The notes beneath the pieces were generated by a model. That model made no database searches, was not told the origin of the DNA, and was given only the letters and a program-made list of their open reading frames with translations. Positions 2,925 through 61,258 of a DNA stretch of 64,000 nucleotides are shown in pieces (position 1 is the stretch's first letter; every line of letters starts with the position of its first letter). The DNA lies in assembly GCF_002105155.1 (NCBI RefSeq), contig NW_019029016.1, positions 124,001 through 188,000 of the forward strand, given 5' to 3'. The DNA is from Lobosporangium transversale (Eukaryota). Both the position numbers and the translations under genes were made by a program.

Positions 2925-3492
2925 CCGGGCGTTCAACCATGATATTATCCATCGAGCCAGGACCATATATGTGTAATCTTCTTTTGTTACCGAATAGAGC
3001 GAAAATCCAGAAAACCACCGTAAATAAAAGAAGTCATATAAAATCTGCTCGACTACCTAGTAAATCTGCATCTTCTTGGTAGTGAGCAAGAACAGAAAAT
3101 GAAAACCCAAAGGGAGGCTGAAAAGGGCGGGACATATATGATCCTGGCTCTCGGATAATAAGCTTAAGTCGTCGTGTTATTCGACTTGGCCAGCTATGAA
3201 TTGTGTTTTTAGGAGGTGCAGCAAAGACATGTGAGATTTCAACTATTGGGTCCCCAAGCTCAAACAGTGTACTATCGTTTTCCTCTTTTAAACTGGTGAG
3301 AGTAATTTGTCTTGTTGGGGACGATGGAATGGAGACGTGGAAGAGCTTTAAAGTGTGGGCATCCATGTCTCTAAAGTCATTGATTCTCTTCTTTTTAATT
3401 GCATCTTTAAGATCGCCGACAGTGTCATCGATTGAGACATCAATTGGGAATGGCGAAGATACTCCATCAATGATGCAAAAGAGTTTGTGCAT
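2925..3492 (-). pseudogene. Crinkler (CRN) N-terminal ubiquitin-like domain exon, interrupted by a mini-DIRS
   Basis: 'MHKLFCIIDG...FPIDVSIDDTVGDLKDAIK...LKLFHV' (LxLFLAK-like). Removing 2944-3195 restores 'PPKNTIHIMVERP' (HVLVxxP motif) followed by a GTAAG donor at 2924. Confidence 0.85.
2944..3195 (+). mobile_element. Non-autonomous mini-DIRS copy 1 (left end + ITR + spacer + right end, no ORFs)
   Basis: Starts ATTATCCATCGAGCCAGGACCATATATGTG, as does the DIRS at 56955. Diverged homolog of 15508-15768. Ends ...GACTTGGCCAGCT. Precise removal restores the host reading frame. Confidence 0.85.
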
Positions 3493-4633
3493 TTCAGGGG
3501 TGAAGATCAATGAGAAGGGTTGAGCAGTAATGATTGTTTACATGAAGATTTGTATGACTGTTTTTTAAAGTATGCACCAAGCTAGATACCATGGCTTCGC
3601 CACGGCCTTCTCTTGCCTCGCTAGAAATTTCATGACGACAAAATAAAGCGTTACCATTTATAACTTTTATTGACTGACTTTTTATATTTATCTCATTCAA
3701 ACACATTTACCTCTCAGCGATATTGAAAATGCTCCGCCACCATTCTCTCATGGTTATCAATTCAGGAACATTTCTTTCCTGTCTATTTACAAATAAGCTT
3801 GGGCCTACACAATGAGCAACAAAAGCATTTACTTATTTTTTTATTCAACTCATACAATCAAAGTTTTGGTAGAAAACCATTCAGCTATTCTCAGCTTTTG
3901 CCTTCCCCTTTTTCTGAGTCAAGGAACTTGACCCAGAGGATACTTAGCTTCTAAATCTTGTGTTCTCGTTAAAAGAGCTTTGATAGTCTTTTCTTGCTCG
4001 AGAATAGTCTTGTCTAGATCATCAATCCTGTTGTATGCACCTCGGACCCCTTTCACTCCAATCATGATTTTCGAAAGTTGTTTCATGCATCAATATAGAT
4101 CGCAGTAGAGAACTGAAAACCTTTTTTTTTTTTTTTTTTTTTGATGACAGAATGAAAGCCTTGGTTGGTTCTTGTCAGGCAGAACTTTACTCATATGAGC
4201 ACTCGCGCAGTATCTACTCAATAGAGCGGCGTGAATTTATGATAAATGGTGACATCAAAGGTGGCAACGGTCAAGTCAGTTCACTCGTGTTCAGCTTGCA
4301 GCCGTCCGCTGAACACAGCTGTGCCATCAAAGCAGAAAGAATGAGCGTTGATAGACTAATGCCACAGAATTATTTGTATTTCCGCCATGACGCCCTCGGT
4401 CAGATGTTCGCTATTTTCTGGTTGGTCAAAACATTTACACGGCAGAAAAGGGAAGCAGACATTGTCCACCTTGGTAAAATTAACCTTTTAATGAGTATGC
4501 AAAGAGCTATTGAGTCAAATATAATGAGTAGTACAAAATAGTGCATTGTATAGACATATAAGAAAAAAAAAGGAAAAATAAAAAGGAAAAAAAAAAGGAA
4601 AAGAAAAAAAAAAGGAAAAGAAAAAAGAAAAAG

Positions 4634-5035
4634 AAAACGGCATAGCGGAAATTGAAAATCGATAATAAGCGCACCTGTGATATCATTTGTCAATTTTCAT
4701 ATGCTTACAAGGTGGAGAAAGCGAGTGTTAATATGCCTGTGCTCTGAATCTCGTCCATTTACTTTAGCTCGCTGTCTAAATAGATATTTCTTTCTTTGTT
4801 GCACCACCTTAGCATGCAGAGAGAGCAATGTGGCTCGTGCTCTGATTGCAGCCTAATATTGTTGTTTATATGATCTTGCAGATCTTGAAGACGGAAGACG
4901 GAATGTTAGCAGTGCTTTTCCCCACCTCCACCCATGAGTGCTTTCTCTTTTCCCTCTTGTATGCATATGAAAAATGACGGATGATATCATGTATTGCGCA
5001 TATTATCCATTTTCAAATTCCGCTACGCCGCTTTT
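4634..5035. repeat. Fold-back/MITE-like element with ~80-bp imperfect terminal inverted repeats (mirror copy ~27316-27717)
   Basis: 4634-4711 (CGGCATAGCGGAAATTGAAAAT...CATATGCTTACAAG) pairs with 4956-5035. A-rich and T-rich flanks extend the symmetry. Confidence 0.6.
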
Positions 5036-5299
5036 TTTTCTTTTTTTCTTTTTTTCCTTTTTTTTGGCCGCTCTAGAGCTCTAGAGCGTACAAAAAGCAA
5101 GATGCTTGATATATTCATTATTCAGTCAATACTCTGAAATCGCAAATTGGTTTCACTTATCATTTTTCCTGCGCGACTTCAAAAACCACTCATCATTCAT
5201 CCATTCGTCCTTTACACGCGAGTGCTTTCGATATAAAATAGACTTTTTTTTTCTTTTCTTTTCTTTTCTTTTCTTTCTTTCCCTTTTTCTCTTCTCTTC

Positions 5300-6650
5300 C
5301 AGTTCAGCCTCATCGACCAACATGAAAGGTAAGCAACACTCCACAAATATTCACCCTTACTAAAGTCCTAACTCTCTCACCTTATGCTGCACTGTACTTG
5401 TTCTGACTTTTCATTCCCTGTCTATCTCTCTTTCTCTCTCTTTCACACCACTGTTAGACCACAAATGATACAAACTTCTAGCCAGATACAGAGCAGAGCT
5501 AGGAAACACTCTGAACAACTCAACAGCAAACTACAGACCAGAAAAAGCAAAAAAAGCCTCACCTGGTCATTCACAGAAGAGCCCTCGCCGCTGTCATCAA
5601 GTAAGTATATAGATTATGTATGCCTTCGCTTTGTCTTGCTTGTGATTGTCCCTACCATCAAATAAGCTTAGCATACTTACAAAGTTATCTTCGTTCTTTT
5701 TTTTCGTCTTCCTCCTTCTAGCTGTAATAGGGGCCACTAGCCCTAGGCTCATGGCGACGATTGTCCCAAAGACTGCAATGGGCCCATGCAGTGCTTATCG
5801 AAATGGGGCGAAAGCGGAGCTGTAAGTACAATTTCTTTTAGAGTACATGTCGTGACTTTCTGTCTGTACTCTGCTGTGCTCTGATTACCAAATATTCTAA
5901 CCACGCGTGTTTTTTTTTGTCTTCTTCCCTTAAAGGCTCATCCGCTTGGGCTCTAGCCCGCCGGGCCCTCCATCGGGCCATCCTCCCGCCTGCCCGTCGA
6001 TCCCCTTCGCAGACCCCTCCGTCAAGCCCTCGCAACTCCTTGAAGGGGGATCATTGTAGTAGCTCTAGAGAGCCTCTAGCCTCTGGACCTTACTTTGATC
6101 CGAGTGCCCTTGGGGATTTCGCATAGGTAACAGATGACACACAGTTGTGGTCGTCTAAGTATGGTAAGTCAGTAACAGTGGCCTGTTTACTAGGCCTATA
6201 GAGCTCAAGTCTCGGCCCTCAAGGAGGTCCCCCCTCCAGCAGGATCAGGATCAGGACCAGGATCAGGATCAGGTGTTATCAAGGCCTGATAACACCTCAG
6301 GTAAGTATACATGCGCATACATAGCAAGGAGCATATTAACTTGATTCTACCATTGCTTTTGTTCTCTCTGTTTAGGTGGGATCTTGGCAACTCGGAGCTC
6401 TATAGTGTTTAGTAAATAGTTCATTGTTACTGACACCATACTTAGATCACCCCAATTAGCGAAGCTGCACCAGGCGCCTGGCTGTAGTGTGTAGTGCATG
6501 GCGTAGAGGCGTCATGTTGTGTGACCTGTTACCTGCCGTCTGAACCAAAGGTACTCTGGTCATAGTAGGGCTTCATAGGCTAGTCGTTCGATAGACTATT
6601 GCAATGAGACCTCTGCTTGGAGAAGCGAGAGCAAGGGTCATAAGGGGAGT
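5300..6650 (+). ncRNA. Putative spliced long-hairpin non-coding RNA locus
   Basis: Four canonical GTAAG...AG introns (5329-5457, 5601-5721, 5822-5935, 6301-6375) with no convincing spliced ORF. Nested imperfect stem from ~6001 to ~6650, rich in G-U pairs. Transcript ends unknown. Confidence 0.55.
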
Positions 6651-7118
6651 AGAGGGCCTTGAGGCATAAAACTAGATCGAAGAGCGCCATGCTTCGAATG
6701 CGGCTTGGAGCGCAGGGCCAACAGAAAGCAGACAGCAGCCGAGGGCCGAAAGCCAATAGTCAAGAGCCAGCAGTCAGCAGTCAACACCCAACATCCAATA
6801 GCAGAAAAAAAAAAAAAAGAAGCAAATAACCAAAACACAAAACAAAGAACACAAAACAAAGAACAAAAAAAAAAAGATAAAAAAAAAGATAAAAACCGAA
6901 ACACAGAGTAAAGAACAAAAAAGATGAGGAAAAGAAAAAAAGAAATAACTCAAAAAAAAACACTCAAAGTCAAAGGCAGCCTCAGCCAAAGCTATAACAG
7001 GCAATGGGACTTTTGCTTGGAGAAGCGAGGCCTACGGTCCATGGAGGAAAGCAGAAGGCCTGGGAAAGAGCATCAGACCGAGGTAGAGCGCCTGGAGAAA
7101 TAGCCTCAGAGCTAATAA

Positions 7119-7520
7119 CCAACAGCCAACAGCCAACAGCCAACAGCCAACAGCCAACAGCCAACAGTTAACAGCCAACGGTCATATAAAAACCCCAAAA
7201 AAACCAAAAAAAAAAAAAAAACCAAAAAAAAAAAAAAACTTCAAATGAAAATAAAAAAAAAAAATAAAAACTTCAAAAGAAAAAAAAAAAAAAAAAAAAA
7301 AAAAAAACCCCGAAGCCAGAAGCCAGAAGCCAGAAGCCAGAAGCCAAAGTCAGAAGCCAGAATCCAAAAGTCAAATGCCAGAAGCCAAATGCCAGAAGTC
7401 GGAAGTCAAAAGATCGAAGCCAGAAGCCAAAAGTCAGAAGCCAGAACCCAGAAGCCAAATGCCAGAACCCAGAACCCAGAAGTCAAAAGCCAGAAGCCAG
7501 GAACCCAAAAGTCAGAAACC
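7119..7520 (+). repeat. Heptamer tandem arrays (CCAACAG)n and degenerate (GCCAGAA)n separated by poly-A tracts (mirror ~24828-25232)
   Basis: Directly visible tandem units. Confidence 0.9.
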
Positions 7521-10500
7521 AAAAATTAGCAGATAGCAGTCACATCACTGCAAAAAAAAAAAAAAAAAAAAAAGCCAACCAGCTCACTCCACTCAACCAA
7601 AAGAAACCTCATTGAAAACCAGCCAAGGCCCAAAGTCGGTAGACGGTTGGCTCAGCCATAGCAGCTAGAGACTGCCTCAGCAAAATTAAAGACAGAAAAC
7701 CTTAGTCAAAGCAATCGAAGGCAGCCAGGCAACCACAATTAATCAAACACAGTTTGCTGCAATCAAGGAAATCAAAGACTACCAAAGCCAAAGTCGACCA
7801 AGGGCAACCTATAAGAGTCCCGATAATCAAAGGCAGTCAACCAAGGGAAGCTAACCCAAAGCCAGGCCACTAGGGCCAGTCAACCAAGGTTTCCAAGGCC
7901 AGTTAGCCAAGGCGCCATCAAAGAATATGCTAAAAAGCAACATCAAAAGAATCCAAGCCGACTAGGAAATGTTCGGTTCATGCAAACGTACCATGGGCAT
8001 CGCCACTCTTGGGCCAGGATGCAGCTTGGAAACCACAGCATAGTAAACAATTAACAATAAATATTAAAAGGCAAGATCAGACACAATGATCTTTGTCTTT
8101 TGTCTGAAAATGTGATGGATCTATGACTATTGTGAATGCGAAATAGGAATAGAATGTTGGTAGCGATAATCAATAGTAAAGCCAATGGATTAAGCTGTGC
8201 CAGCTATCGGTAGCAAGCTACTCGGTAATATATAGCTGGCTATATACTTACATTCACTCATCCACGGCCTTGAAGAGCAACCCAATCAAGCACATGAATA
8301 CCTTAGTGGAGTTGTGGACGTGTATTGTTACAGGCGCTTACCGTGTTACAGTGCGTTCACATTTGCACTGTCTGTGCCCTCATTGACTACAGCAGTTAGT
8401 AAAGGAGACCATCTTCTTTATCCTCTTCTTCTATTCTCTTTCTTCACTCTTAACAAGAGATGGGATAGACTATGTGGGAATTATACTTTGGCAGATTGCC
8501 GTTTTTCCAGAGTTTGATAGAAGATAGCACATGACAATCCTCAAGATACCTCTGCGCCTTTTAATTTTAATTTCTATATTTTCATGCAAGACAATATGGA
8601 ATATGTAGATTAATGATTAGATTTTATAACTTCTTTGTTTGAAGGCGAAATAAAGTATCAACGTTTATGTATCGACCAATAAAAGGCATCCAACCGTGTC
8701 GAGGGAATGACGTGTTGTATCTCCTTGGCGTTCCGAAAGTTAAAAAAAAGGAAAAGTCTGTTCGAACAAAAATTGCTAAAGCACAGTTCCCACGATATAC
8801 ACAAACGACATGGCATACACGTGAGTATCAACAGTATCAACATTTCCATGAGCAACGCTGCTTTATGAGCCCTCTTTAGTGCTATACCATGCTGCCTTGG
8901 CCATCTTTTGTCCACTTGGTATTTCTCCACATTATTGTTTCACTGTCATCAAAGAGAGTGCTATATAAAAGAAAGGGCAAAATTAGGGATAAATAATAAA
9001 AATGTACATGAAGGATAATACCGCCGCCTCGCACCATGACTGTATGGACATGACTAATATTGATGTGTGGCTGTTTGCTCTCAGAGACAGGTTGCCATCA
9101 TTCATGTGGCATCTGGAAGTAAAAAAGGTCAATTTTATCGAGATGGACAATGTGTCCCTTGTCTGCCGTGTGAATATTCAGATTCAAAATGGACTCTGAC
9201 CAACCAGAAAAAAGAGTGTTCAAACGAACATCTGACTGAAGGTGTCATGGTGGAAAAATAAATGACATTGCGGCGTTCCCTCTGAACGCGTTATCTCTTT
9301 AGATTTTCAATACTACTTTATCTCATTCGTTTAATATTACAACCTACCCACCCACAATGACTTTCTTTATTGCTGGAGAATGATAGTTATCAGTATTTAT
9401 TATTATTTAACATTTGGCAGCAGGGATGCTCAGTTCCTTTGCGTCGCTGTAAAATATCGTATCGACAACACAAATGGAAACAACAAGTATAAAAAATCGA
9501 TAGCTATAAAGGAATAAAAATATGCTATACCAACTGAGCTATTCTCAAAAGGGTCAACAGCCGAGTCGTTTGCCGAGATTTAGGCAGCAGGTCACAGTCT
9601 GTCCAATCCTGATCCTAAAAAACAAATGGAAATAGACCTTACTTTACCCCTTTCACTCCAATCATGGTTTTCAAAAGCTGTTTTCATGCATCAATATAAG
9701 CCGCAGTAGAGAACTCTTTAATCTTATTTGTTGAGGGCAAAAAAATGAAAGCCTTTCATTTTGGATGACCGAATGAAAGCCCTGGTTGGTTTTTGTCATG
9801 CAGAACTTTGCTCACATGAGCACTCGCGCAGTATCTACTCAATAGAGCGGCGTGAATTTATGATAAACGATGACATCAAAGGTGGCAACGGTCAAGTCAG
9901 TTCACTCGTGTTCAGCTTGCAGTCGTCCGCTGAACACAGCTGTGTCAGCAAAGCAGAAAGAATGAACGTTGATAGTCTGGTTGTAACTGAAAGTGTATGT
10001 GTGTATGCTGTGAGAGAGGGGCAACAAGTCAGTCATACGTCTTTTTTTTTGTATAAATACCTCTCCTTTTCACACATACACACTCAACTCTCTTTTCTTT
10101 TTACATTTCATTTGCAGAAAAGAATCTTCACATAAACACACTCTATTCATATCTCATATCTCTTTTTTCCCATTGAATAAACACCGCCCTGCATCACCTA
10201 TAGTCACTCTCTTTTATTTTATTTTTTTTAAAAAGCCCTTGTCCCCATAATCAGTTCAGCTTTTAACAGTACCCACTTATCAGCACGACTCAGCAGCGAG
10301 TCAACTATCGATTCACAAATATAAGGTAACTACATGTAATAAGCATAACAACACCGTTTCCGAGATGTGATGTTACCAACTTTGCCACCACTTTACATCA
10401 TTGTGCAATTCTTTTTTTCTCTAATGTTACCGAGAAGAAAAGTACAGGGTGTTGAAGTTATCATATTGAAATCTAAAGCCTAAAGGCTTTGGGAGCCTCA

Positions 10501-10676
10501 AGACGCGTGTCATTGAAAACTGAAATAAAGAAAATCTAACTTTTGTTTAATTCTATTGGCATTTCCATAGCATCTGTCACCTCTATCAAAAGAGTCGCTA
10601 TTGACCTATTGTTTGGGTTTATGTTCATCACAAGGCTCATGCCCCTGCAACACACCCTAGCAGAGCAACTGTAGCA

Positions 10677-11387
10677 ATGAGCGGCGAGGACCATATTCCG
10701 GCAGAGGGAGCCAAGACTCCGTCGCGTAAAACTAAGACTAAATCACACAGTAAGTTTGTTTACATCTTTTTATTTCCTTTTGTGATGTCCATAATAGGAA
10801 ATGTACCGTTCGATACCATTTAGTTATCCAGTATTCCAATGCTCACCCATAGAGTACTCATTCTTTTTATTTATTATTACTCTTTTCGGTGATTATTAAA
10901 ATGGTTTGTGGTGATTCAGCTGGCACTCCAGTCCAGCAGCGACGTAGCGATAGAATTCGCACGAAGATGGCTGCAATTGTTAAAGATGGTAAGCATTATA
11001 TATATATAGATACACTGAAAGAAATTCACGATAGACAATAGACTGACGTTAATGTTTTTCTTTTCTTTTTTTTTTTTTTCTTTAATAAAGTGGGGGACTC
11101 AATCACACCCCCACATAGGTCTTATATTCACTCCAAGTTCCCATCACATATGGGACTTCTCGGTACCTCTGCGTCTCCGAGAGGAGTCGAATTAGACCAA
11201 TATAAAAGAAGGCTTCAGTTTAAGAGCGGTACGCGAAGCAACCTGACGCTGACAGACGCATATAGGAACTTTGAAAGGGATGTCAAAGTCCAAGAGTTCC
11301 ATGCGGATCAGCGGGGCAAACGCAACAGTGCCCATTTAAAAAACCGTGGTTGTAAGTTATCTATCTATTTGTTTTCTTCAATTCTAT

Positions 11388-11442
<55 letters not shown>

Positions 11443-12699
11443 TTTGGAGAATGGAAGAGAAATGGGTATTAACTGTATATCTAATCTCATTTTGTAAATG
11501 ATAATAATATTATTCCAAAAGTGGTCGTGGCTGCTGGCTCCAAAGCCCGACAAACCAGCGTAACCGCTACGCAAACTGAAGCCGGGCCAGCCAAAGTACA
11601 GGCTGCTCCACACCATACTTTGCGACCAGGTGTGGGGCAGGGCTCTGTACTAGAGTCGAATCCAGAGGTGGGCACCCTGGCCGAAACCACCCTGGAGAGA
11701 CGCAGGAGGCAATATAACCAAATCAGGTCCCGCCATATTGCCTCCAATTATACCAGTTGGGAAGAGCGGGACCAACACTGGCGAGCCAAAAGATTAGCAA
11801 GCTACAAAGCTTTATCTAAGGCCGCCAGAGAGACCGCAGTGTTCAAGAAGCGAAACTGTAAGCAGTTTTAAAAGACGCAAATAACATAAGGAGTTGGATA
11901 TTTTCAAAATGGAACATTGATTATTCTAACCATCTGTTTTAACTATACAATAGTGGACATTTGCGGATGGGGAAACTCGCGAAAAAATCTCGGCAACTAC
12001 CTCAGTATTTGCTGGGATTATAATTCAGACCTGGATGAAGACAAAGACCAGGCTCTTCCAGAGCGTGCTCCATCCACTCTTCAATATCGCAACGCTGCCG
12101 GAACAGTTGTTGAGTCCGGCGTGATCTATCATCCGCAGACTATTGTCGACGGAGATAATGATCACCTGAATGGATACTGTTTCACAGTCCAGTCAGAGCT
12201 TGCCTTGAAGTTTGAAGCAGCACAGCGGGTCTTGTTTCAACAGGCGAGTGACCTCATTCAGGGCTCCTTCTTCCAATACAATATGGACCTGTCTTTGGAT
12301 TCCAGTCTTGATGACGGATTCACCATTGATATTTTTGTGTCGTCGGCCCCTTCAAAGGATTTGGCCGACATCACAGTCCGAGGGGTGACGCAGTTCATCT
12401 TTATGAAGTCGTACATTTATGTCGACAAGATCTGCGTCGCACAAAAATATCAGAAAATGGGAATCGGGGCTTTTTTGATGGATAGGATCCTCAAAATCGC
12501 CCAGAAGCGGAACAAAGACATTCTCTTGTACGCACTTGGCCCTGTTATAGGTGCGTACAAGAGATGGGGGTTCGAATATTGTAAAGAGTGGCCGCCAATC
12601 CCCAAGGACGTTGGCGCGGTCATGCGGAAGCGTATCCGCACAGAAGGAGTCAAAGACGAATATGTTGGCCTGGAGTGGGATGGTACAGGCTTCTCTTAG
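10677..12699 (+). CDS. GNAT-family acetyltransferase with low-complexity basic N-terminus (5 exons, ~494 aa)
   Basis: Exons 10677-10749, 10920-10988, 11091-11351, 11522-11857 and 11954-12699 join in frame through four phase-1 GT-AG introns (1485 nt). C-terminal 'YVDKICVAQKYQKMGIGAFLM...AYKRWGF' contains the acetyl-CoA motif A (QxxGxG). The start exon is least certain. Confidence 0.8.
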
Positions 12700-14198
12700 G
12701 TCGCAGAGAGCCCAATCCACTTCCAGGCCAGCACGATACCCTTCGTCTTTTACTATAGTCCTTGGTTTTTGTTTTATTTCCGCGATGTATTATATATATA
12801 TTTATTTGCTTATTTTTGCTATGTACCATTATCACCACCATCATTATTAGAATCATTATTATCATCATTAAATTATCATCATTAAATTATCATCAGTATT
12901 GTCAGCATTGTCAATGGCATTAATTACTCAGTGTATTCTAATAAACTTTATTAATTTATTTTCTTGTTTAAAAAAAAAAAAAGCTTCTTTCAGCAACAAC
13001 AGCAGTCAAATTTGACCATCACTTACTTACACTTCATCTAATCTATTGTCTAGTTTCATTCAAACCATTGAGAGGGAGCCCACTAATCTTACGAATGAGG
13101 CAGCACACAGAGAGTGGAAAAAGACGCTTCTCATAAACTAGTTCATGAATCTGGTATTGATTAGCAGGAACGTAAGAAGCGTCTGCGGCTAATTCCACCA
13201 AGTCCACCTGCTGCACTTAATCCATTTAATGTACCGACTCTGAATGCTCTACGGAAGCGAAGAAATGAGACTAGAGAGTTCCAAAAGAATAAGAAAAAGA
13301 GCTGGAAGCAATGAAGAAGCAAGCACAAAAAAAAGGATCCTCCTACAAGGAAAAAAGCCACACTTGCAAGCTTTTGATCAAACCAGCCAGGAAGTTTTTG
13401 ATGGCAGCAAAAGGGCCACAGCAAGAGAAGAGGAAATGATGGGAAAAGAGTAAAGAGGTGTTGGAGAAAGTAAGAGAGCTGGATAGATGAAAGTTGAATA
13501 AGGAGTCCTTACATTAAGCCAGTAACGAAAAAGTGTTCAGATCAAAGCGGAAGTGAGGATAAAAAAGAGGCCAGAGGGAAGGCTGGTGGAAGCAAGAAGC
13601 AAGACAGTGTCAAGTCAACTGAGAGAGAGTTGAAGAGTGAAAGAAGTTAAGCTGAAAGAGTAGGAAAGAGACTGGAAAGTGATGAGGAGGAGTAAAGTGG
13701 GAGAGGGAAAAGAAAGAGTAGAAAGGAGTGTAGTAGGAAGAAAGTGAAACCTGTCACAGGAGGCACAGACAACAAAACGTTATGAGGAAAATGAAATGAA
13801 GGGACCAAACTTCCATTACTGAATAGGCAAGTTGATCGTCCGTAGTAACTTTATCATATCCTGTATTTTGCGAAGACTCTAAAATAGTGCATGGCTGCTT
13901 TGTTGCAAAGAAAAAACTGTTTTTGCTCTCGACCGATCACTTTGGAGATCCATAGCTCCTCAAACTACTGGCCCCTAGGGCCTAGCTCTTGCATCAACCA
14001 GGAGGGAAAGTCTGACTCTACCAACCAGTGAAGTTTCGAAAAATCCAACACGGCCCCACCTGTATCCTAAGTGTAATTTCCATCCAAGTGCAAGGTGTTG
14101 TTGCACTTGTCCGCTTTAAATGCACTTGCCGCCAATTATGAGTCTATACTAGCTTAATTGGCCTTTATTATCCTCGTAGCCATGGTCCATATGTGACT

Positions 14199-20900: not shown

Positions 20901-20955
<55 letters not shown>

Positions 20956-25038: not shown

Positions 25039-25070
<32 letters not shown>

Positions 25071-51068: not shown

Positions 51069-51998
51069 ATGAGCGACAATTCTACCGACAACACTCATAA
51101 TGCACTCCTTCATGAAATCAACACTCTTCGTCAGCAGGTGGCTGCCCTTACGCAGGCCAACCCTTCCTCCTCTTCCCCTTCCCCCATCACCATTGATCGC
51201 CCACAGGCCAAGATACTTGTCCTCTCTGATACCCTCAAAGCGGCTGTACCTTCCCTTGACGGCTCTCATTTCTTCCGTCCCCCGGACAACTCTGGCGACG
51301 ATAACATCCTCACCGAGTACGTCCTCTATCCCAAGAACCCAGATCAGCAGTACAAAGCGCCCTCTCTTGAGTTGCCTTGGCCTCAGGAGACCACTTCTTT
51401 TCAACGAGTGGACAAGTGGTTATCCCAACTACAGGAACGTCAGGCCCACGCTACGCGACCCTTGGACGAATTCCTGGCAGAATACTTTCACAAAGTGCAC
51501 GATCCTGCATTACGGCAGATCGTCGCAGATTTTGGGCATGTCATGCGATCTCATCTGGCCGTTACAGCACGCCAAATCACCGATCTGCGCATGGATAATT
51601 TTGTGTACGCAAAGGGTCTCAAGCCAGCCCCTGATCATGAAAAGACTGCAACTATCACTAAAGATGATATTGCAGCCCGAATTAAAGCTGCTGAGGAGTA
51701 CCAGGAGGCCAGCAAGCCTCGCAAGACAGCTTTGCAAAACAGAGGATCCGGTCGCAATTCCGGTTCTCGCAGCAGGGGTATTTACTTTAACATGTACCCC
51801 CACCAGCAGCAACAGTTCCAGCAATTTCCATCACAATCGCAACCTTATTCACCAGCGAATCATCATCAAGCACAACAAGCCACACCTCCTCAGCTCACTT
51901 ACGGGTATGGAGAGCCCATGCATAACAACCAGCAGGGACAGTATTTTTACAGAGGCAGCCGTGGACGGGGACGCGGCAGCGCCAACAAGAGCCAGTAG
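51069..51998 (+). CDS. DIRS gag-like protein
   Basis: First ORF after the left ITR. Homologous to the first ORFs of the other DIRS copies ('LSQLQERQAHATRPLDEF'). Confidence 0.8.
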   Translation: MSDNSTDNTHNALLHEINTLRQQVAALTQANPSSSSPSPITIDRPQAKILVLSDTLKAAVPSLDGSHFFRPPDNSGDDNILTEYVLYPKNPDQQYKAPSLELPWPQETTSFQRVDKWLSQLQERQAHATRPLDEFLAEYFHKVHDPALRQIVADFGHVMRSHLAVTARQITDLRMDNFVYAKGLKPAPDHEKTATITKDDIAARIKAAEEYQEASKPRKTALQNRGSGRNSGSRSRGIYFNMYPHQQQQFQQFPSQSQPYSPANHHQAQQATPPQLTYGYGEPMHNNQQGQYFYRGSRGRGRGSANKSQ

Positions 51999-52063
51999 GG
52001 GGCCGTCTGCACCTCTACTCGAGGGCTTGGAGGCTCCTCACGGACGACAGGTGGGTCCGCTCC

Positions 52064-53869
52064 GTGATTGGAAACGGTTTTCAGATTCCCTTCCACAGAC
52101 AACCTCCAATAACACACACATCAAGAGCCCTTTCCCCGCATCTATCCAAGGAGGAGACACTGGCGATAGAGAACGAAGTGATCGCACTTCTGGCCAAAAA
52201 AGCCATAGAGCACGCTTCGGGACCTGGTTTCCAGAGTCGTTTGTTTACTATCCCCAAGAAGACAGGGGACCTCCGGCCTGTCCTCAACCTACGTCCTCTC
52301 AATCAATTTATCATCACAGACTCGTTCAAGATGGAGACGATTCAGGTAGTATGCAATACCCTTCAGAAGAACGATTATTTGACGAGCATCGATCTCAAAG
52401 ATGCTTTCCTTCATGTGCTGATTCATCCACATTTTCGTCCTTACCTTCAGTTTCAGTGGAAGGGTCAGCTGTATCAGTTTCGCACTCTACCTTTCGGGAT
52501 GTCACTGTCGCCGTTAGTCTTCACGAAGGTCCTACGCCCGGTGTTGAGATGGGCGAGGCGTCGAGGAATACGGCTGACAGCTTACATCGACGATCTGTTG
52601 ATCATGGCCAACTCCAAAGCCCAAGCAGAAGAGCACACGAATCTTGTCCTGGACAAACTCAAGTCTCTTGGATTCCTCATCAACAAGGAGAAATCCTCTC
52701 TGATGCCAACGAAATGTCTAGATCATCTGGGTTTCACCATCAACACCACCGACATGACCCTCTCGGTACCGAAGTCCAAGGTCAGGGACATACGGCGAGA
52801 AGCAGCGAAGATGCTCAGCAAGGGATGGACGACGGTTCGCAACTTGGCTACGTTCATAGGGAAAGCCATGGCGACGACAGCAGCAGTATTTCCAGCTCGT
52901 CTAATGACGCGGCATCTTCTGGCATTGAAGAACAGAGCACTCAGCCATCAGGGGTCATCTTGGGAAGCGACGATCTCACTGGACGACAGAGCTCGAGCCG
53001 ATCTGGATTGGTGGACACACCAACTCAAGGAGTGGAACGGGACGTCATGGATTCAGTCGCCAACTCAGATGGACGTGTACACAGACGCCTCCGACCAAGG
53101 CTGGGGGATCGTCATAGGGCAGCGCACTTGGACAGGGCTATGGCCACCAAACATACGCCACCAACACATCAATTTAAAAGAGTTACTAACCGTGTACTAC
53201 GCAGTCACTCTACCGCAAACACAAGGGAGGATGCTCAACCTAGTAATCGACAACACAACCACCATCGCTTACATCAACCGGTTCGGCGGAACTCGTTCAC
53301 AACCTCTGATGGACCTGGCGGACAAAATATGGAAGCATTGTCTAGCAACAGGCACAAGACTCAGGACCACATATGTACCTTCAGTATTCAATCCAGCAGA
53401 TGCACCATCACGCCGGATGCAAGCGCAGCTCGAATGGAGGCTGGACCCGTCATTTTTCCGTCGTCTAGACCAGCAGTGGGGGCCTCATCGGATAGACCTC
53501 TTTGCATCGCCCAGCAACAACCAGCTTCCTCAGTTCATGACATGGAAACCTCATCCTTTGGCAGTGGACTTCGATGCGCTGAGACACAAGTGGAGCCACT
53601 TGGGCAACCTTTACATCTGTCCTCCATGGAACTTACTTCCAAGGATCCTGCAGAAGCTAGACCAGGAAGGCCTGGAAGCGACCATAATTACTCCATTTTG
53701 GCCATCGGCGATTTGGTTCCCGAAGATACAGGCAATGGCGACCCAACCCCCTTTACCGATTCCACGAACATGTGTTCTCCCTCCACCAGGAAGCGACGCG
53801 CACATCCTGCTCAAGAATCCACACTGGGGCCTTACCGCGTGGAGAGTAAGAGGACGAGGATGCTCATAG
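52064..53869 (+). CDS. DIRS reverse transcriptase-RNase H-adenine methylase-like polyprotein
   Basis: IDLKDAF, LPFG, YIDD, YTDAS, INLKEL, DNTT, ADAPSR, DLFA and ICPPW motifs. The frame is open slightly upstream ('PVGGRL'). Confidence 0.95.
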   Translation: MIGNGFQIPFHRQPPITHTSRALSPHLSKEETLAIENEVIALLAKKAIEHASGPGFQSRLFTIPKKTGDLRPVLNLRPLNQFIITDSFKMETIQVVCNTLQKNDYLTSIDLKDAFLHVLIHPHFRPYLQFQWKGQLYQFRTLPFGMSLSPLVFTKVLRPVLRWARRRGIRLTAYIDDLLIMANSKAQAEEHTNLVLDKLKSLGFLINKEKSSLMPTKCLDHLGFTINTTDMTLSVPKSKVRDIRREAAKMLSKGWTTVRNLATFIGKAMATTAAVFPARLMTRHLLALKNRALSHQGSSWEATISLDDRARADLDWWTHQLKEWNGTSWIQSPTQMDVYTDASDQGWGIVIGQRTWTGLWPPNIRHQHINLKELLTVYYAVTLPQTQGRMLNLVIDNTTTIAYINRFGGTRSQPLMDLADKIWKHCLATGTRLRTTYVPSVFNPADAPSRRMQAQLEWRLDPSFFRRLDQQWGPHRIDLFASPSNNQLPQFMTWKPHPLAVDFDALRHKWSHLGNLYICPPWNLLPRILQKLDQEGLEATIITPFWPSAIWFPKIQAMATQPPLPIPRTCVLPPPGSDAHILLKNPHWGLTAWRVRGRGCS

Positions 53870-54825
53870 ATGGCCTCTCGCCAGCGGTGACTGAGTTTAT
53901 CTGTGCTCACAAAGGATCCAAGAGCACCAAGCGAGAGTACGAAAAGCATCAAGCTGAATTCGTCACTTGGCTGAAAGAGGGCTCGTTCGAACAAGGGATT
54001 AACCCCGCGATCCCAGTAGTGAACTGGCTACACTACGTGCGGGTCGCTCGCAATTTGAAGTGGTCCACGCTGATGACCATGAAGTCGGCTGTCCTCGCCC
54101 TATTTCGTGACCCAGAGAGAGTACGATCAGATGAATACTACCGCCAGTTCCTCAAGGCTGGAAAGCAAGAAGGTGTCGTTGAGTCCAGGTCTGGTCACTT
54201 TGACATCACACCTGTTTTGGACCATTTTCGGCAGTCATCAGCAAATATGGAGTTGCCTTTTGAGGAGCTTACATGGAAGCTGTGTTGGCTCTTAGGCGTC
54301 TGTGGCTTCATGAGACCAGACGACATCAGATGTGTAGATGTCAGTCTCTCCAAGATTGTGTTAGGGAAGCTTCAGCTTGTTGTTGTTTTCCCAAAAGAGA
54401 AGAGTGATGGACAACGTATCATTAAGCATGTGACCATTGGTTCTCACTTTGACAAGAAGCTATGCCCTGTCGACGCATACACCGCTTACCTGGACAGGCT
54501 GTCTTGTCCTTCCACTACCTCTCCTCATCCGAAGGACCCAACAAGAAGCATTGTACCTTTGATTAGATTTGTGAAAGACCACACCCAGCCGGCGCGTGCG
54601 ACTACTATTGGCTCCCACATGAGTAGGATTTCTTCGCTGATGGATTTAGGAGACAAGAAAGCTCCTAAGCTCCGAGCCTTAGGTTCTACGCTCGCGGCTA
54701 TAGCAGGCGTACCAGTGGCTGATATCATGGTGCAGGGGAATTGGTCGTCCCCGAAAGTCTTCGAGAAGCACTACCGTTTGTCGAGTGCCACCTCCAACAA
54801 CATGTCCATGAGCACTCTAGGCTAG
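53860..54825 (+). CDS. DIRS tyrosine recombinase (frame open from 51100)
   Basis: 'GFMRPDD', 'PKEK', 'LCPVDAY', 'KLRALGST' and 'GNWSS...EKHY' catalytic R-K-R-W-Y pattern. Confidence 0.93.
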   Translation: MLIDGLSPAVTEFICAHKGSKSTKREYEKHQAEFVTWLKEGSFEQGINPAIPVVNWLHYVRVARNLKWSTLMTMKSAVLALFRDPERVRSDEYYRQFLKAGKQEGVVESRSGHFDITPVLDHFRQSSANMELPFEELTWKLCWLLGVCGFMRPDDIRCVDVSLSKIVLGKLQLVVVFPKEKSDGQRIIKHVTIGSHFDKKLCPVDAYTAYLDRLSCPSTTSPHPKDPTRSIVPLIRFVKDHTQPARATTIGSHMSRISSLMDLGDKKAPKLRALGSTLAAIAGVPVADIMVQGNWSSPKVFEKHYRLSSATSNNMSMSTLG

Positions 54826-54915
54826 ATTTTCTTTAGTTAGTTGTTCATTTCGTTCAGTTTTCTTTTAGTTTTAGTTTTGTTTTAGTTTAGTTCTCTTTGG
54901 CGATCCCTCTGGAGC

Positions 54916-55007
54916 CACATACGGACATGGTACCGTAGACAATGGTCTACTGAATGGTCTACGAAGGACGACCTATTCACATTGTCATAGGTACCATGGA
55001 CGTATGT
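54916..55007. repeat. Internal complementary region (ICR) of DIRS 2
   Basis: First part is the reverse complement of 50898-50925 and second part of ~55137-55203. The two overlap at AAT (GTAGAC-AAT-GGTCTAC). Confidence 0.97.
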
Positions 55008-55779
55008 CCCACCCACACCACCCCTTTTTGGCTCGAGAAGTAGATGTAGATCAGAGTTGCAGGGCAGAGGGATCTTTTTATTTAGTTTATTTTTCTTTAT
55101 TTCTCGTCGGATTTTCAATGAAGAAAGGTGACACACACATACGTCCATGGTACCTATGACAATGTGAATAGGTCGTCCTTCGTAGACCATTCAGTAGACC
55201 ATTTTTCGGCCGTGACAGGTGAGGCTCCTCTCAAGATGCTCTGTTATTAAGCCCATTCAGTCCCTGAAGTTCAAAATACAAATTTTACTGTTTATTCCTT
55301 TACATACATTATTTATTTGGATTCATTGTTTCTAACGATTTGTAACCCGCCTCCACCACATGTCCCATTTTTCCCACCATTTCAGAAAGACTGATCACCT
55401 GACGTTGCAATCCTTGGATTGTTTCGTTTTGCATTGTGGGCTAAAACAGCAAAAGTCAAAGTAGTATTCTAGGGGATCCTGCTGCAAGGAATGCTCTAGA
55501 AAATTGGGCGAAATGCTGTGTCATACAAAATCATAATAGCAATGTCGCTTGCAAAAACCCATAATCCATATTGATGACGCTGGATGTTGACGATGTTGAA
55601 TTACGCATTTCCGTTGGTATAGGCGGAGGGACATGGAATGGAAGAGGGATTTTGATAGGGATTTTTGAATCGATTAAGTCCGGTTCACCCATCACCACAA
55701 TGATTGGACACATTGTTCTGAAATGTTGACAGTTTTTGAAGTGATTTAAAACCACATCACGGTCTCGATATCTATTTCG

Positions 55780-56954: not shown

Positions 56955-57152
56955 ATTATCCATCGAGCCAGGACCATATATGTGTTATCTTCTTTTATTG
57001 CCTAATTTAGCGAACTTTTCAGAAAACTACCCTTAAATAAAAGAAATAAGCTATATAAATCTGCTCTGCTACCAAGTTGGATCTGCATCTTCTTGATAGT
57101 GAGCCAGGAACGTATCCGCATTCATTTTAGATCACTACTGCTACTTCCCCTT

Positions 57153-58065
57153 ATGTCTATCACTCAAGATGAAACCATCGCTTCACTTCAACAACAACTG
57201 GCTACGTTGGCTAGCCAATTCGCTGATCTTCAGCGCTCCAAGGAGGAACAAGATCCAGCCATGGAGACCCCTACTCTCATTCAAACTTACAAGCCCACAC
57301 AAGATGATCTCGAACGCTTCCCCTTCTTGGAACCAAAAGATCCTTCTTCCGTCTTTCAACAAGACATTACCGACGAGGAGCTTTGGGAACAGTTCAGACA
57401 ATTTCCAAAAAACATTCATTGGCCATATGAACCTCCCAAGCTCCCTTCAGCTGTTTCTCTTAAAACCCATCAAAAACATCATGATCAACAACTTCGAGCG
57501 CTACAAAAACGGTTACTCAACCTTACTCGCCCACTACATTTGTTCGCTCACCAAACCACTTCCATGGAAATCGATGATAAAATGGGTACCGAAGACATCG
57601 CCGACATTTGCGGCACCTTTGTCACACTTATGCAGGAACAGATTACTGGTACGATCGGCAGGATCAACAACATGCGACTTGAAAATCTTCATGCCGCAAT
57701 GGGCTCAACCTACAAGCAAACATCATTGGAACTTGTGGATCCAACTAAATTCCAGGAGGAGATTAAGACCCTTACAAAATTTTTTCAGCCCCCGACAGTT
57801 TCAAACTAGCAGTAGTTCAGATAGAAAAAATAAGACAAACTCTAATTCGTCTTACAACTACAAATTTGGCAACAAAAGCAACGAAGGCCGTTATTTTTAC
57901 GGGGACAACAATTACAGACGGGGGGACAACAACTACAGGCGAGGAGACAGCAACAGCCGAAGAAAGGACAGCAGCTACCGGAGATCAGACAGCCGCCGGA
58001 GAGACCGAAGCAGCAGTCGCCGACGACAAGAGAGAAAGTCGGGGGAAGAATCACACTCTTCTTAA
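57153..58065 (+). pseudogene. DIRS gag-like, frameshifted near 57790
   Basis: ORF 57093..57809 ('LQKRLLNLTRPLHLF'), with the RG/RS-rich tail in another frame ending at 58065. Confidence 0.7.
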
Positions 58066-58136
58066 ACGCATGGCGGAATGTTACAAAAGATCGAACACTC
58101 CTAGAGATAGTCAAGGAAGGTTACTCTATCCCGCTC

Positions 58137-59936
58137 TTGAACGCACCCCCAATTTCAACATCCCATCCTCCACCTTACCCGCTATCGGAGAAGGCGACAA
58201 AGAGTGTGGACAACGAAGTGTCCGCTTTGCTAACGAAGGGTGCAATAGAATTCGCGAGTGGACCCGGATTTACAAGTCCGCTCTTCACAATCCCCAAAAA
58301 GACTGGAGACGAAAGACCTGTCCTAAACCTGAAAGCATTAAACCAGTACTTACCTACACAACACTTCAAGATGGAGACAATCCATCAAGTATGCAATCTA
58401 ATAAAGAAAAACGATTATCTTACCAGTATAGATCTGAGCGATGCATTTCTTCATGTGCCGATACACCCAGCATCACGAAAATATCTTCAATTCCAATGGA
58501 GGGAACAACTGTACCAATTCAAGGTCCTACCATTCGGACTCTCCCTAGCACCATTGATTTTCACCAAGATACTGAAGCCTCTACTTCAATGGGCACGAAC
58601 AAAAGGAATAAGAATATCAGCTTACCTCGACGGCCTGATAATCGCAGCACCGAGCAAGGAATCATCCCAACGTGCAACAGCACTAGTCTTGACAAAACTG
58701 AAGAGCCTAGGTTTCTTGACAAAGGAATCCAAGTCGAGTCTTCAACCGAAACAGATACTGGAACATCTGGGATTCGAGATAGATACAACGACGATGACCC
58801 TGAGTGTACCGGGCAAGAAAATCCGGGACATTCGTCGAGAAGCGTCCAAACTGGCCAACAAGGGGATCTGCACAGTCCGTCAGCTATCATCCTTCATAGG
58901 CAAAGCGAGCGCAATGACAGCCGCAGTCTTTCCGGCTCGCCTCAAGGTTCAGCACCTCATGGCAGACAAGATTCATGCATTGAAATTGGATCCCTCATGG
59001 GAACGCTCAATATCTCTGTCAACCAAAGCAACGGAGGAACTCCTTTGGTGGAGGACACATCTCAAATCATGGAATGGGAAGACATGGATCGCAATCAACC
59101 CAGAAGTCGACATTTACACCGACGCATCGGATTCAGGATGGGGCGTAGTCATCAACAACCAGACAATCAAGGGATCTTGGTCAGACAGTCTTCGAGAACG
59201 ACACATCAATTACAAGGAAATGCAGGCCATTTTCTACGCCCTGAAACAACCAGAAGTGAGGGGACGCACAGTGAACGTGATAACGGACAACATCACGACA
59301 ATGGCTTACATCAACCACTTCGGCGGGACACGATCTCCAGCACTGATGACGCTAGCGACATCGATATGGGAATGGTGCTTGAAAACAGAGACAAGGATCA
59401 AGACAACCTACGTGCCCTCAGCATTCAACCCCGCAGACGCCCCATCCCGGCGCCTGACAGAACAACTAGAATGGAGCATCGACAAAGAATTCTTCAAAAA
59501 GCTCCAAAGACGATGGGGCCCTCACCACGTCGATCTATTCGCCTCGCCAATAAACAACAAAGTGACGAAGTTCATGAGCTGGAAACCAACTGCAGGAGCA
59601 ATAGGGCACAACGCCCTTCAACATCATTGGCGCCAATTCGGCAACGTTTACTTATGCCCGCCGTGGAACCTCATCCCCCTAGTATTGGAGAAAATCCGAG
59701 AGGAGAAGATAGAAGCAACCTTAGTGACACCTTACTGGCCTTCGGCGATGTGGTATCCAACAATCAAGATGATGACAGTGGACCATCCAATACCAATGCC
59801 TCGCCATCAAGTTCTCCCAGCGCCGGGAAACGCACCAGACATTCTGGCCAAAAATCCCCATTGGTCATTATGCGCTTGGAGGGTAAGAGGCGACGACTCG
59901 AAGCGAAAGGCTTCGACCCAGCCACGGCATCGATAG
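58137..59936 (+). CDS. DIRS RT-RNase H-methylase-like polyprotein; RT motif reads YLDG, so probably inactive
   Basis: Same motifs as 52064..53869 but the second catalytic Asp is replaced by Gly. Confidence 0.9.
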   Translation: MNAPPISTSHPPPYPLSEKATKSVDNEVSALLTKGAIEFASGPGFTSPLFTIPKKTGDERPVLNLKALNQYLPTQHFKMETIHQVCNLIKKNDYLTSIDLSDAFLHVPIHPASRKYLQFQWREQLYQFKVLPFGLSLAPLIFTKILKPLLQWARTKGIRISAYLDGLIIAAPSKESSQRATALVLTKLKSLGFLTKESKSSLQPKQILEHLGFEIDTTTMTLSVPGKKIRDIRREASKLANKGICTVRQLSSFIGKASAMTAAVFPARLKVQHLMADKIHALKLDPSWERSISLSTKATEELLWWRTHLKSWNGKTWIAINPEVDIYTDASDSGWGVVINNQTIKGSWSDSLRERHINYKEMQAIFYALKQPEVRGRTVNVITDNITTMAYINHFGGTRSPALMTLATSIWEWCLKTETRIKTTYVPSAFNPADAPSRRLTEQLEWSIDKEFFKKLQRRWGPHHVDLFASPINNKVTKFMSWKPTAGAIGHNALQHHWRQFGNVYLCPPWNLIPLVLEKIREEKIEATLVTPYWPSAMWYPTIKMMTVDHPIPMPRHQVLPAPGNAPDILAKNPHWSLCAWRVRGDDSKRKASTQPRHR

Positions 59937-60868
59937 TTGTGGACAGTCCTGAGTTACAACGCAAGCAACGCGCATACGCCAAGATACAAGACAGGTATAT
60001 TCAGTGGGCCACAGCACGCAATGTAGACGCCATGGTACCACAGCCACCTCAACTATGTAACTGGCTTGCCTCCGGAGTCGCAATCCACGGATGGTCAGCT
60101 TCAACGGTGGACGCATATAAAGCCGCAGTCATTCATATGTATGACGACAAGAGCGCATTCAACGATCCGGACTTTCTGTTATTTTTCCAAACTCTACGTC
60201 GTCGTGAGATCAAGCATACAAAGGAACTCAATATAGACATCAAACCCGCTGTCGAATATTTACAACAACTAGGGCCTAACAGTTCTCTCACTCTCCTTAT
60301 TCTCACACAAAAACTGTGTTGGCTACTCGGTACATGTGGGTTTCTCCGACCAAACGATATCATGTGTATCGATCTATCAAATGACAAATTCCATATCGAT
60401 GGCATCGTTGTAGTCCTTCCAATTTTGATTCCCAAGGAAACACGTGGTGGCAGCAGGATATGCAAATACACCACAGTTAAGAATCACACCGACAGTTCCC
60501 TTTGCCCGGTGATGACCTTCACCGAATATCTCAAAAGGATTGAGACTCACGCTATCAGCGTACCACACCCTAAGGACCAAAGCATTCGATATCGTCCTTT
60601 AATACGAGATATCAGAGACCTCAAAAAACCCGTGGGAGCTGATCGAATAAGCAATCATATCTCAGCCATAAGCAGCAAGCTCATTCTTCCAAATGGCTCC
60701 AAGTTACCCAAAGCCAGGGCTATTGGTTCCACCCAAGCCATTAAACAAGGCGCCAGTGTCGACGATGTAGTGGTACAAGGCAATTGGTCTTCATCAATTC
60801 TGTTCGACAAGTTCTATCGACTGAACGCAGCAACAGCCACTAATTTCACCTCGATGATACTGTCTTAA
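59870..60868 (+). CDS. DIRS tyrosine recombinase (frame open from 57866)
   Basis: 'GFLRPND', 'PKETR', 'LCPV', 'KARAIGST' and 'GNWSS...DKFY'. Confidence 0.92.
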   Translation: MRLEGKRRRLEAKGFDPATASIVVDSPELQRKQRAYAKIQDRYIQWATARNVDAMVPQPPQLCNWLASGVAIHGWSASTVDAYKAAVIHMYDDKSAFNDPDFLLFFQTLRRREIKHTKELNIDIKPAVEYLQQLGPNSSLTLLILTQKLCWLLGTCGFLRPNDIMCIDLSNDKFHIDGIVVVLPILIPKETRGGSRICKYTTVKNHTDSSLCPVMTFTEYLKRIETHAISVPHPKDQSIRYRPLIRDIRDLKKPVGADRISNHISAISSKLILPNGSKLPKARAIGSTQAIKQGASVDDVVVQGNWSSSILFDKFYRLNAATATNFTSMILS

Positions 60869-61258
60869 GGAATCTGCTCTGGATCCACATATATGGTCCT
60901 GGCTCGATGGATAATATGTCCTTACGACAAATTTGGTAGAACATGCTCCGCATGCATCGACATTTGTTGCTGAATAGATATCATTTGCCCCAAAATAGAT
61001 CCCGCAATAAGGCTCGTGACGTGACAGCCAGGTTACCCAACTCGACCCGAAGCCTTTCTGACTAATATATAAATATAGATTAAGGTATAGATACATAAAG
61101 TAAATTGTTTGTCATTAATGAAGAGAGAGTGTTTTAATGCAATCAATGCGAAATATACAAAGTAACAGCTATTTAAACAGATCTGCAAAATTATAAAGCC
61201 TATCTCAACAAAATGGGACGTCCTTACAATGTTGGGTAAAAAAAAAATAGAATTGCTG

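What the first reader, a model, noticed from the sequence alone, without database searches (positions are those of the whole stretch)
2944..60915. DIRS ICR appears to act as a live genomic recombination site: mini-elements, half-elements and a giant palindrome in one window
Established: DIRS elements have ITRs plus an ICR that is an inverted copy of the circle junction (right end - 3-bp core - left end), and they integrate through a tyrosine recombinase without a TSD. Seen: one complete element defines the layout (core ATT). Two other elements stop exactly at the AAT core in the middle of their ICR. Two gene-less units consist of the missing part (ICR second half, spacer, ITR) closed by a left end. 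One ICR break is joined to a 10-kb inverted copy of the element's own flank. Inference: the ICR is cleaved or recombined in chromosomal DNA, so these DIRS spawn MITE-like satellites and rearrange host DNA. I am not aware of this being described.
Basis: partly seen in the sequence, partly recalled or inferred. Interest (0 to 1): 0.92.

Follow-up and report, generated by a model that had tools for sequence, protein, structure and literature searches.

The report
DIRS internal junction breaks, spawns minis
In what is likely a fungal genome, two copies of a jumping gene end exactly at an internal copy of their own joining site, next to 250-260-base miniatures built around that site, which likely means the element's recombinase also acts on this internal site and can rearrange host DNA.

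Summary
The anatomy is real. The window holds one complete DIRS1-like element (C), two copies (B, D) that stop exactly at the 3-bp ICR core, a 10.16-kb palindrome around B, and two gene-less minis (252 and 261 bp). Short-read contigs of other runs show the empty sites of C and mini-2, a third mini-like layout, and about 5 ITRs and 3 spacers per D-family body (2 and 1 expected), so tail-derived units probably outnumber their parents. Minis have the junction signature of full elements (left ATT, right A plus target bases).

Cutting at the ICR alone gives right halves, not minis: minis need a switch in a ~20-bp block shared by ICR and right ITR, and their length equals that loop. Both half-elements use the shortest of three available repeats, which points to a site-specific event, but a hairpin break repaired by 29-30-bp homology gives the same junctions. 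No reciprocal half, circle or spanning long read was seen.

I found no description in nine searches of open papers; key subscription reviews were not seen. New variant of a known kind; interest 0.7.

The parts
50898..55203 (+). Element C, complete DIRS1-like retrotransposon (left end 50901-50925, ITR-L to 51013, gag, RT-RH-MT frame 51926-53869, YR frame ending 54825)
   Evidence: empty paralogous site with one core copy in X1, X2, X3 (joint 50896->55200, skip 4303, 4 shared letters)
54916..55007 (+). ICR of C: ICR1 (54916-54940), core AAT (54941-54943), ICR2 (54944-55007); folds as a long hairpin
   Evidence: z -7.6 and -6.3
55008..55200 (+). Tail of C: spacer, ITR-R (55048-55143) and right end (55137-55200)
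56955..60915 (+). Element D, half-element ending at the ICR core (ICR1 60886-60912, AAT 60913-60915); RT motif reads YLDG and gag lacks 8 bp relative to the family contig; YR frame open
   Evidence: YR folds like Cre
60910..62400 (.). New right flank of D: a multi-copy repeat whose unoccupied form shares 6 bp with the end of ICR1 plus core
   Evidence: loose end before 60910 in X2 and X3; depth several times that of D's left flank
14167..18176 (-). Element B, half-element ending at the ICR core (left end 18173-18148, ICR1 14195-14170, core 14169-14167); frameshifted; carries mini-2
   Evidence: family body contig begins exactly at 14167 in X1 and X2
4048..14195 (-). Derived palindrome arm: inverted copy of B's own left flank, joined at 4047/4048 to unrelated sequence in the middle of a repeat
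   Evidence: the one substitution (4073) is derived in this arm by comparison with the paralogue at 9660-9686
18148..28304 (+). Native palindrome arm (B's left end and left flank; the repeat broken at 4048 continues here past 28304)
2944..3195 (+). Mini-1 (252 bp): ATT, left end, ITR, inverted spacer, right end; followed by ATG; interrupts a Crinkler-domain ORF
15508..15768 (+). Mini-2 (261 bp), inserted in the pol/MT region of B; ITR 125 of 126 identical to D; followed by AGT
   Evidence: empty site in the B-family majority contig of X1 and X2 (joint 15507->15769, skip 261, 1 shared letter)

Best explanation
The window holds one complete DIRS retrotransposon, two copies that stop exactly at the core of their internal junction copy (ICR) and two gene-less minis, and the ICR is likely used by the element's tyrosine recombinase (YR) as a second recombination site. 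Shown: the ICR is identical to the predicted circle junction; B and D end at its core; the minis equal the inverted tail of a full element with the true left end swapped in; they sit in their sites with the same asymmetric core as full elements. [quoted passage not shown] Minis would be made afresh by each subfamily and, lacking an ICR of their own, would not retrotranspose further. Inferred, halves: YR exchanges a resident ICR with a new target (D) or with the left junction of the same element on the sister chromatid (B); the latter gives flank - body - inverted flank, later broken 10.1 kb away and end-joined at 4047/4048.
For: Anatomy. Mini length (252, 261) lies in the range of the loop between the two shared blocks in the 7 full elements where it could be measured: 201-269 bp, 239-269 in the four closest relatives. 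Mini-2 aligns over its whole length with the inverted tail of L003. Mini-1 and mini-2 are 30/30 and 62/64 alike at the ends but 125/169 in the middle, which fits separate parents, not neutral decay. Cores: ATT at 13 of 14 left ends but 2 of 9 right ends (Fisher p 0.001); minis follow this; empty sites of C and mini-2 show no duplication. D-family single-contig depths: ITR/body 4.96, 4.67, 5.52 (X1-X3), spacer/body 3.28, 2.93 (X1, X2) against 2 and 1 for full elements. A third left-end-to-spacer layout in X1 and X2 (joint 15531->15697). Both halves use the shortest of three inverted repeats (29 vs 96 vs 67 bp in C). D's new flank is an unoccupied DIRS-type site elsewhere. The B-family body contig starts exactly at the core in 2 of 2 runs, as expected if two different sequences precede the ICR core, while a C-family contig of X7 runs through its core. 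The arm contig has 2.2x and 2.1x the depth of seven low-depth contigs per run. B's 3.95-kb spacer is far above the 40-80 bp preferred in fork template switching (PMC10766183, passages).
Against: No reciprocal right half in the window (12 tails searched) or seen in reads; no circle; no long read. D's own junction was not seen bridged (most rows were not shown: 209 loose ends, 765 pieces). Depth is not a copy number by the tool's own statement, and 55499-56286, single in the window, has the same depth as the arm, so duplication of the arm is not proven. Excess ITR and spacer could be right halves or other tail fragments, not minis. The ICR is a strong hairpin and L016 breaks in its loop, which offers a YR-free trigger. 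Of 20 metagenome loci with a recognisable ICR1 only 1 (L012) ends at the core, and it may be a short-read misjoin. In-place formation of minis leaves the same junctions.
Confidence: 0.55

Rival explanations
1. Half-elements come from host repair without YR: the ICR hairpin stalls a fork or is cut in its loop, the end is trimmed back to ICR1 and anneals to a left end through 29-30 bp of identity, either the element's own (B, foldback palindrome) or that of another family member or mini (D, copying its flank).
For: ICRs fold at z -6 to -12; L016 ends 18 nt past the core, inside the predicted loop; homology repair gives junctions identical to those seen; D's new flank is multi-copy and looks like a normal left junction; the family offers many left ends.
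Against: Breaks outside a ~110-bp stretch would favour the longer ITR or ICR2 repeats; 29-30 bp is short for homologous repair (recalled); no donor insertion with D's flank was seen, though the tables were cut.
Confidence: 0.25
2. For the minis only: they are immobile solo-type remnants formed in place in two steps, first a flip of the body or tail between inverted repeats, then deletion between the resulting direct repeats.
For: Leaves the same flanks and cores as a fresh insertion. L017 reads as a tail-flipped element. Solo AB units are known for Ngaro (PMC8547959, passages); solo-like deletion was predicted for DIRS (PMC8498967, passages). An earlier AI note reports a body-flipped DIRS (e1-7359305, untested).
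Against: Needs two events per copy, yet tail units seem to outnumber bodies 2-3 to 1 in a young family (mini-2 ITR 125/126 to D; family contigs differ from D at 6-14 sites per 0.9-1.9 kb). L017 is also what a short-read graph walk would produce. The one-step deletion predicted in PMC8498967 gives a different order (left end, spacer, right ITR).
Confidence: 0.3
3. The palindrome and the half-elements are assembly or library artefacts at the 29-30-bp left-end/ICR1 repeat.
For: Arms are nearly identical and differ mostly by homopolymer indels; short-read contigs do break at this repeat (L006); no spanning read was available.
Against: D's new flank is not its own flank; the derived arm has its own outer junction and a derived substitution; the B-family contig breaks at the core and the arm shows about twice the lowest depth class in two studies. 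It cannot explain the minis, whose empty site and extra copies appear in other runs.
Confidence: 0.1
4. B-type palindromes arise at insertion: YR uses the duplex formed between the joined ends and the ICR in the folded single-stranded cDNA; exchange of both strands caps the target with a loop holding the body, and replication opens it into flank - body - inverted flank.
For: Predicts B's layout exactly in one step; DIRS-1 cDNA is single-stranded and the double-stranded circle was not detected (PMC7192593, abstract and section 29).
Against: B's body looks older than its arms: it holds mini-2, has frameshifts and differs from the family contig at 29 of 1266 sites, while the arms differ by one substitution; it does not explain D.
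Confidence: 0.1

Closest known systems
DIRS1-like retrotransposons (PMC3266345, passages with part of Table 3; PMC7192593, abstract, passages, section 29; fungal survey PMC3783388, passages)
   Same: ITRs, two ICR halves overlapping on a 3-bp junction, ATT the commonest end, no target duplication, RT-RH-MT and YR, a short block conserved in both ITRs and both ICR halves; start and end trinucleotides can differ in published elements.
   Different: In those passages the ICR is only the template for rebuilding ends. Elements ending at the core, tail-derived minis and a palindrome centred on a half-element are not mentioned; YR specificity is stated to be untested.
Solo AB repeats of Ngaro elements (PMC8547959, passages) and the solo-like deletion predicted for DIRS (PMC8498967, passages)
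   Same: Short gene-less units made of terminal repeats, raising terminal over internal sequence.
   Different: Those are one-step deletions between direct repeats. The minis here have ITR and spacer inverted relative to that product; the amphibian DIRS showed about 1:1, not an excess.
Non-autonomous DIRS-order elements such as TOC1 (PMC9940879, passage)
   Same: [quoted passage not shown]
   Different: Gene-less DIRS1-like copies need the ICR to retrotranspose (PMC7192593); the minis have none.
Inverted duplications at interrupted inverted repeats (ODIRA; PMC10766183, passages)
   Same: A palindrome whose centre is bounded by a pre-existing short inverted repeat.
   Different: ODIRA uses 2-14-bp repeats mostly 40-80 bp apart; here 29 bp, 3,952 bp apart, and the repeat is a recombinase site.
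MITEs (definition recalled)
   Same: Short, gene-less, apparently multi-copy, imperfect inverted ends.
   Different: No target duplication, a 36-bp extension beyond the inverted part, YR partner instead of a DDE transposase.

Membership tests
DIRS1-like retrotransposon (C; B and D as derivatives) | Inverted terminal repeats | tested here: met
   C: 96 bp exact, 118 bp at 95.8%
DIRS1-like retrotransposon (C; B and D as derivatives) | ICR complementary to both ends, overlapping on a 3-bp junction | tested here: met
   25 bp + AAT + 64 bp exact in C; B and D keep only the first half
DIRS1-like retrotransposon (C; B and D as derivatives) | RT, RNase H and methyltransferase in one frame | tested here: met
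   RVT_1 above cut-off in B, C, D; Dam-like hit in C (below cut-off) and D; RNase H-like hits near or below cut-off
DIRS1-like retrotransposon (C; B and D as derivatives) | Tyrosine recombinase | tested here: met
   No Pfam hit at cut-off, but the D model matches Cre, E 4.5e-7; conserved R, K, R, W, Y in 21 sequences
DIRS1-like retrotransposon (C; B and D as derivatives) | No target-site duplication | tested here: met
   Empty site of C has the core once
Retrotransposition-competent non-autonomous DIRS (minis) | Intact ICR and two ITRs | tested here: not met
   One ITR, no internal junction copy
MITE (minis) | Target-site duplication | tested here: not met
   Mini-2 empty site: 261 skipped, 1 shared letter
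MITE (minis) | Terminal inverted repeats at the very ends | tested here: not met
   Right end runs about 36 bp beyond the inverted part
MITE (minis) | Many copies spreading from one another | tested here: inconclusive
   Excess ITR and spacer depth, but origin from parents or from other minis cannot be told
Solo-type remnant (minis) | Formed in place from a full element at the same site | not testable with these tools
   No genome or strain panel held
ODIRA-type inverted duplication (B palindrome) | Junction at an inverted repeat with spacing under about 100 bp | tested here: not met
   Spacing 3,952 bp against PMC10766183 passages

The most novel reading that the evidence does not exclude
The DIRS ICR is a live tyrosine-recombinase site in chromosomal DNA. 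Every resident DIRS1-like element carries three sites (left junction, right junction, ICR), and recombination at the ICR produces half-elements, translocation-type junctions and giant palindromes, while read-through of the ICR during end rebuilding releases 250-260-bp circles that integrate as the family's most common product.
Probability: 0.45. Interest if true: 0.85.

Novelty: new variant of a known kind. Interest (0 to 1): 0.7.

Why it matters
DIRS integration has been a model since 1985: the circle junction has not been amplified and the recombinase's specificity is untested (PMC7192593). The minis are natural 250-260-bp molecules whose only recombination site is the ICR-derived junction, so they define a minimal substrate and a much easier circle to detect than the full element. 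If the ICR is active in chromosomes, DIRS1-like elements, which are abundant in some animal and fungal genomes, are site-specific rearrangement agents, and truncated copies written off as decay carry a readable signature. The left/right core asymmetry also suggests that the real crossover needs only about one or two matching bases, not three.

Tried and rejected
No whole genome is held, so no genome-wide census of ends was possible. IMG/VR scans with D's pol, the YR alignment and a right-end pattern found nothing; GTDB scans gave no YR relative and six 19-22-bp chance matches. No mini was found in the flanks of the 31 metagenome loci, which are mostly short. PDB sequence search with the YR gave nothing. 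No RNA holder was listed; X7 is only guessed to be RNA and is not used for expression. Reading D as a TIR element with an ATAT duplication was rejected: its right flank has another natural upstream neighbour. Circularly permuted integration through the ICR was rejected for D as a single step: its left end is not preceded by a right end. YR recombination at the degenerate core inside the right end was rejected for minis: it would keep the degenerate, not the true, left end. Neutral decay of mini-1 was rejected. Arm depth as proof of duplication is inconclusive (no certified single-copy control). The empty site of mini-1, the outer junction at 4047/4048 and the D junction itself were not examined or not seen in reads. 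In one search the script took 23 of 31 loci (8 left out: no or tiny tail, or decayed ends) and found ICR1 in 20; L017 was left out of the right-core count and L018/L019 were counted once.

Full report
Setting. No genome is held for the window. The closest named relatives of D's recombinase are from Mortierellaceae, up to 78% identical, so the host is inferred to be a fungus of that family. DIRS elements were reported from one such genome (PMC3783388, passages).

Observation. Self-comparison and motif maps give five DIRS-derived units. C (50898-55203) is complete: ICR1 is the exact inverse of the first 25 bp, ICR2 of the last 64 bp, joined by AAT. Contigs of three runs hold a paralogous empty site with the core once. 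D (56955-60915) and B (18176-14167, minus strand) have a left end, ITR, gag, pol and YR and stop after ICR1 plus AAT. B is flanked by arms of 10,158 columns at 99.86%. The arm at 4048-14195 is the derived one: it breaks a repeat that continues past 28304 in the other arm, and its single substitution is derived against a paralogue. Both halves are aged copies: D has YLDG in the RT motif and an 8-bp gap in gag against the family contig; B has frameshifts, mini-2, and 29 differences in 1266 bp from its family contig. D's YR folds like Cre.

Minis. Mini-1 (252 bp) and mini-2 (261 bp) read ATT, left end, ITR, inverted spacer, right end. The window has no full D-family tail, but metagenome locus L003 supplies one: mini-2 is collinear with its inverted tail and the last 64 bp match at 62. 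The one structural change is that the degenerate left-end copy closing the right ITR is replaced by the true left end. [quoted passage not shown] The minis are that loop. Mini-2's empty site appears in the B-family majority contig of both runs laid: 261 bases skipped, one shared letter, target AGT kept on the right. Across window and metagenome ends, ATT is at 13 of 14 left ends and 2 of 9 right ends; published elements also differ between start and end (PMC3266345, part of Table 3). Minis therefore sit like YR products. Single-contig depths give ITR/body near 5 in three runs and spacer/body near 3 in two, against 2 and 1 for full elements, and a further left-end-to-spacer layout is present in both runs. 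The tool states that depth is no copy number, the runs may be one strain, and the excess may include right halves. Mini-1 and mini-2 agree at 92 of 94 end positions but 125 of 169 in the middle, which fits separate parent subfamilies.

Half-elements. A full element offers three inverted repeats (29, 96 and 67 bp in C). Both halves use the shortest, which homology-driven repair would favour only after a break in or just behind the ICR. D's new flank is a multi-copy repeat whose unoccupied form, seen in X2 and X3, shares six bases with the end of ICR1 plus core and is not D's left flank, so D joins two loci. For B, the family body contig starts exactly at the core in X1 and X2. The shared block is 29 bp, shorter than the assembly word, so a family with only normal ICRs should run on into ICR2, as a C-family contig does in X7. 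A variant last base of the right end would give the same break. The arm contig has 2.2 and 2.1 times the mean depth of seven low-depth contigs per run, but so has 55499-56286. Among 20 metagenome loci with a recognisable ICR1, 19 continue into ICR2 and L012 stops at the core; L012 may be a short-read misjoin, L016 stops in the ICR hairpin loop, and L017 reads as tail-flipped, possibly a graph walk. No right half lies in the window.

Mechanism. The ICR is sequence-identical to the circle junction, so nothing in the DNA stops YR from using it. I put 0.55 on the combined reading: minis are loop circles closed by a switch in the shared block, most likely when end rebuilding on the cDNA reads through the core, and integrated at the ICR-derived junction; halves are YR exchanges of a resident ICR with a new target (D) or with the sister's left junction (B), the latter later broken and end-joined. 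The main rival for the halves is a hairpin break with 29-30-bp homology repair (0.25; ICRs fold at z -6 to -12). The main rival for the minis is in-place flip plus deletion (0.3, a separate question).

Known versus new. C meets every DIRS1-like feature tested. The minis fail the tests for MITEs and for ICR-bearing non-autonomous DIRS; the ICR is essential for retrotransposition in DIRS-1 (PMC7192593). The nearest precedents are solo AB units of Ngaro (PMC8547959), a predicted but untested solo-like deletion in DIRS with a different order of parts (PMC8498967), and the proposal that DIRS clusters favour rearrangements (PMC5941688). Nine searches of the open library showed no description of ICR-core halves, tail minis or ICR-centred palindromes. 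What I saw: PMC7192593 abstract, passages and section 29; passages only of PMC3266345, PMC3783388, PMC9210276, PMC8547959, PMC5941688, PMC8498967, PMC13465315, PMC10766183, PMC11193728 and PMC9940879; no supplements. Goodwin and Poulter 2001, Poulter and Butler 2015 and Repbase were not available and may hold such derivatives. Earlier AI notes had nothing on this window or on such minis.

Verdict. Real and apparently undescribed, a new variant of a known kind. The minis are well supported; the ICR as a chromosomal YR site is likely but unproven. Interest 0.7.

Noticed in passing
window and L001-L019 element ends: Right-end cores keep only the first A (ATC, ATA, ACA, AGA, ATG, AGT, ATT) while left cores are ATT; the base before the core matches the element's right end in 10 of 14 left flanks. 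The effective crossover may need only one or two matching bases.
   Followed up: partly
window 35367-42264 and 44063-50878: Inverted pair of ARM-NACHT-WD40 (NLR-like) genes, 88% alike; C sits just upstream of the second copy.
   Followed up: no
window 3037-3537: ORF with a Crinkler N-terminal domain (E 1.7e-18) interrupted by mini-1.
   Followed up: no
window 61259-64000: Multi-copy minus-strand ORFs with weak P-loop NTPase and nuclease-like hits below cut-off, very deep in run X7.
   Followed up: partly
window 33827-34195: Isolated 3' fragment of large-subunit rRNA, 211.8 bits.
   Followed up: no
window 11890-12699 and 19644-20453: GNAT acetyltransferase ORF duplicated by the palindrome; further diverged copies exist in the runs.
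   Followed up: no
joints 55202->58471 and 51550->54442: A C-family right end joined to the inside of a D-family copy (nested insertion) in X1 and X3, and an internally deleted C-family copy in all four runs.
   Followed up: no
window 9441-9469 (paralogue elsewhere): A D-family left end is inserted in another copy of a repeat that lies in the palindrome arm; the window's copy reads ACA at the core position.
   Followed up: partly
L017 4169-4480: B-like element whose tail reads inverted and ends in a joined right end/left end; real isomer or assembly graph walk.
   Followed up: partly
window 29227-29407 and 31228-31411; 848-1516: A 184-bp inverted repeat at 95.7% around coding-like sequence, and a weak gag-aspartyl-protease hit.
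   Followed up: no
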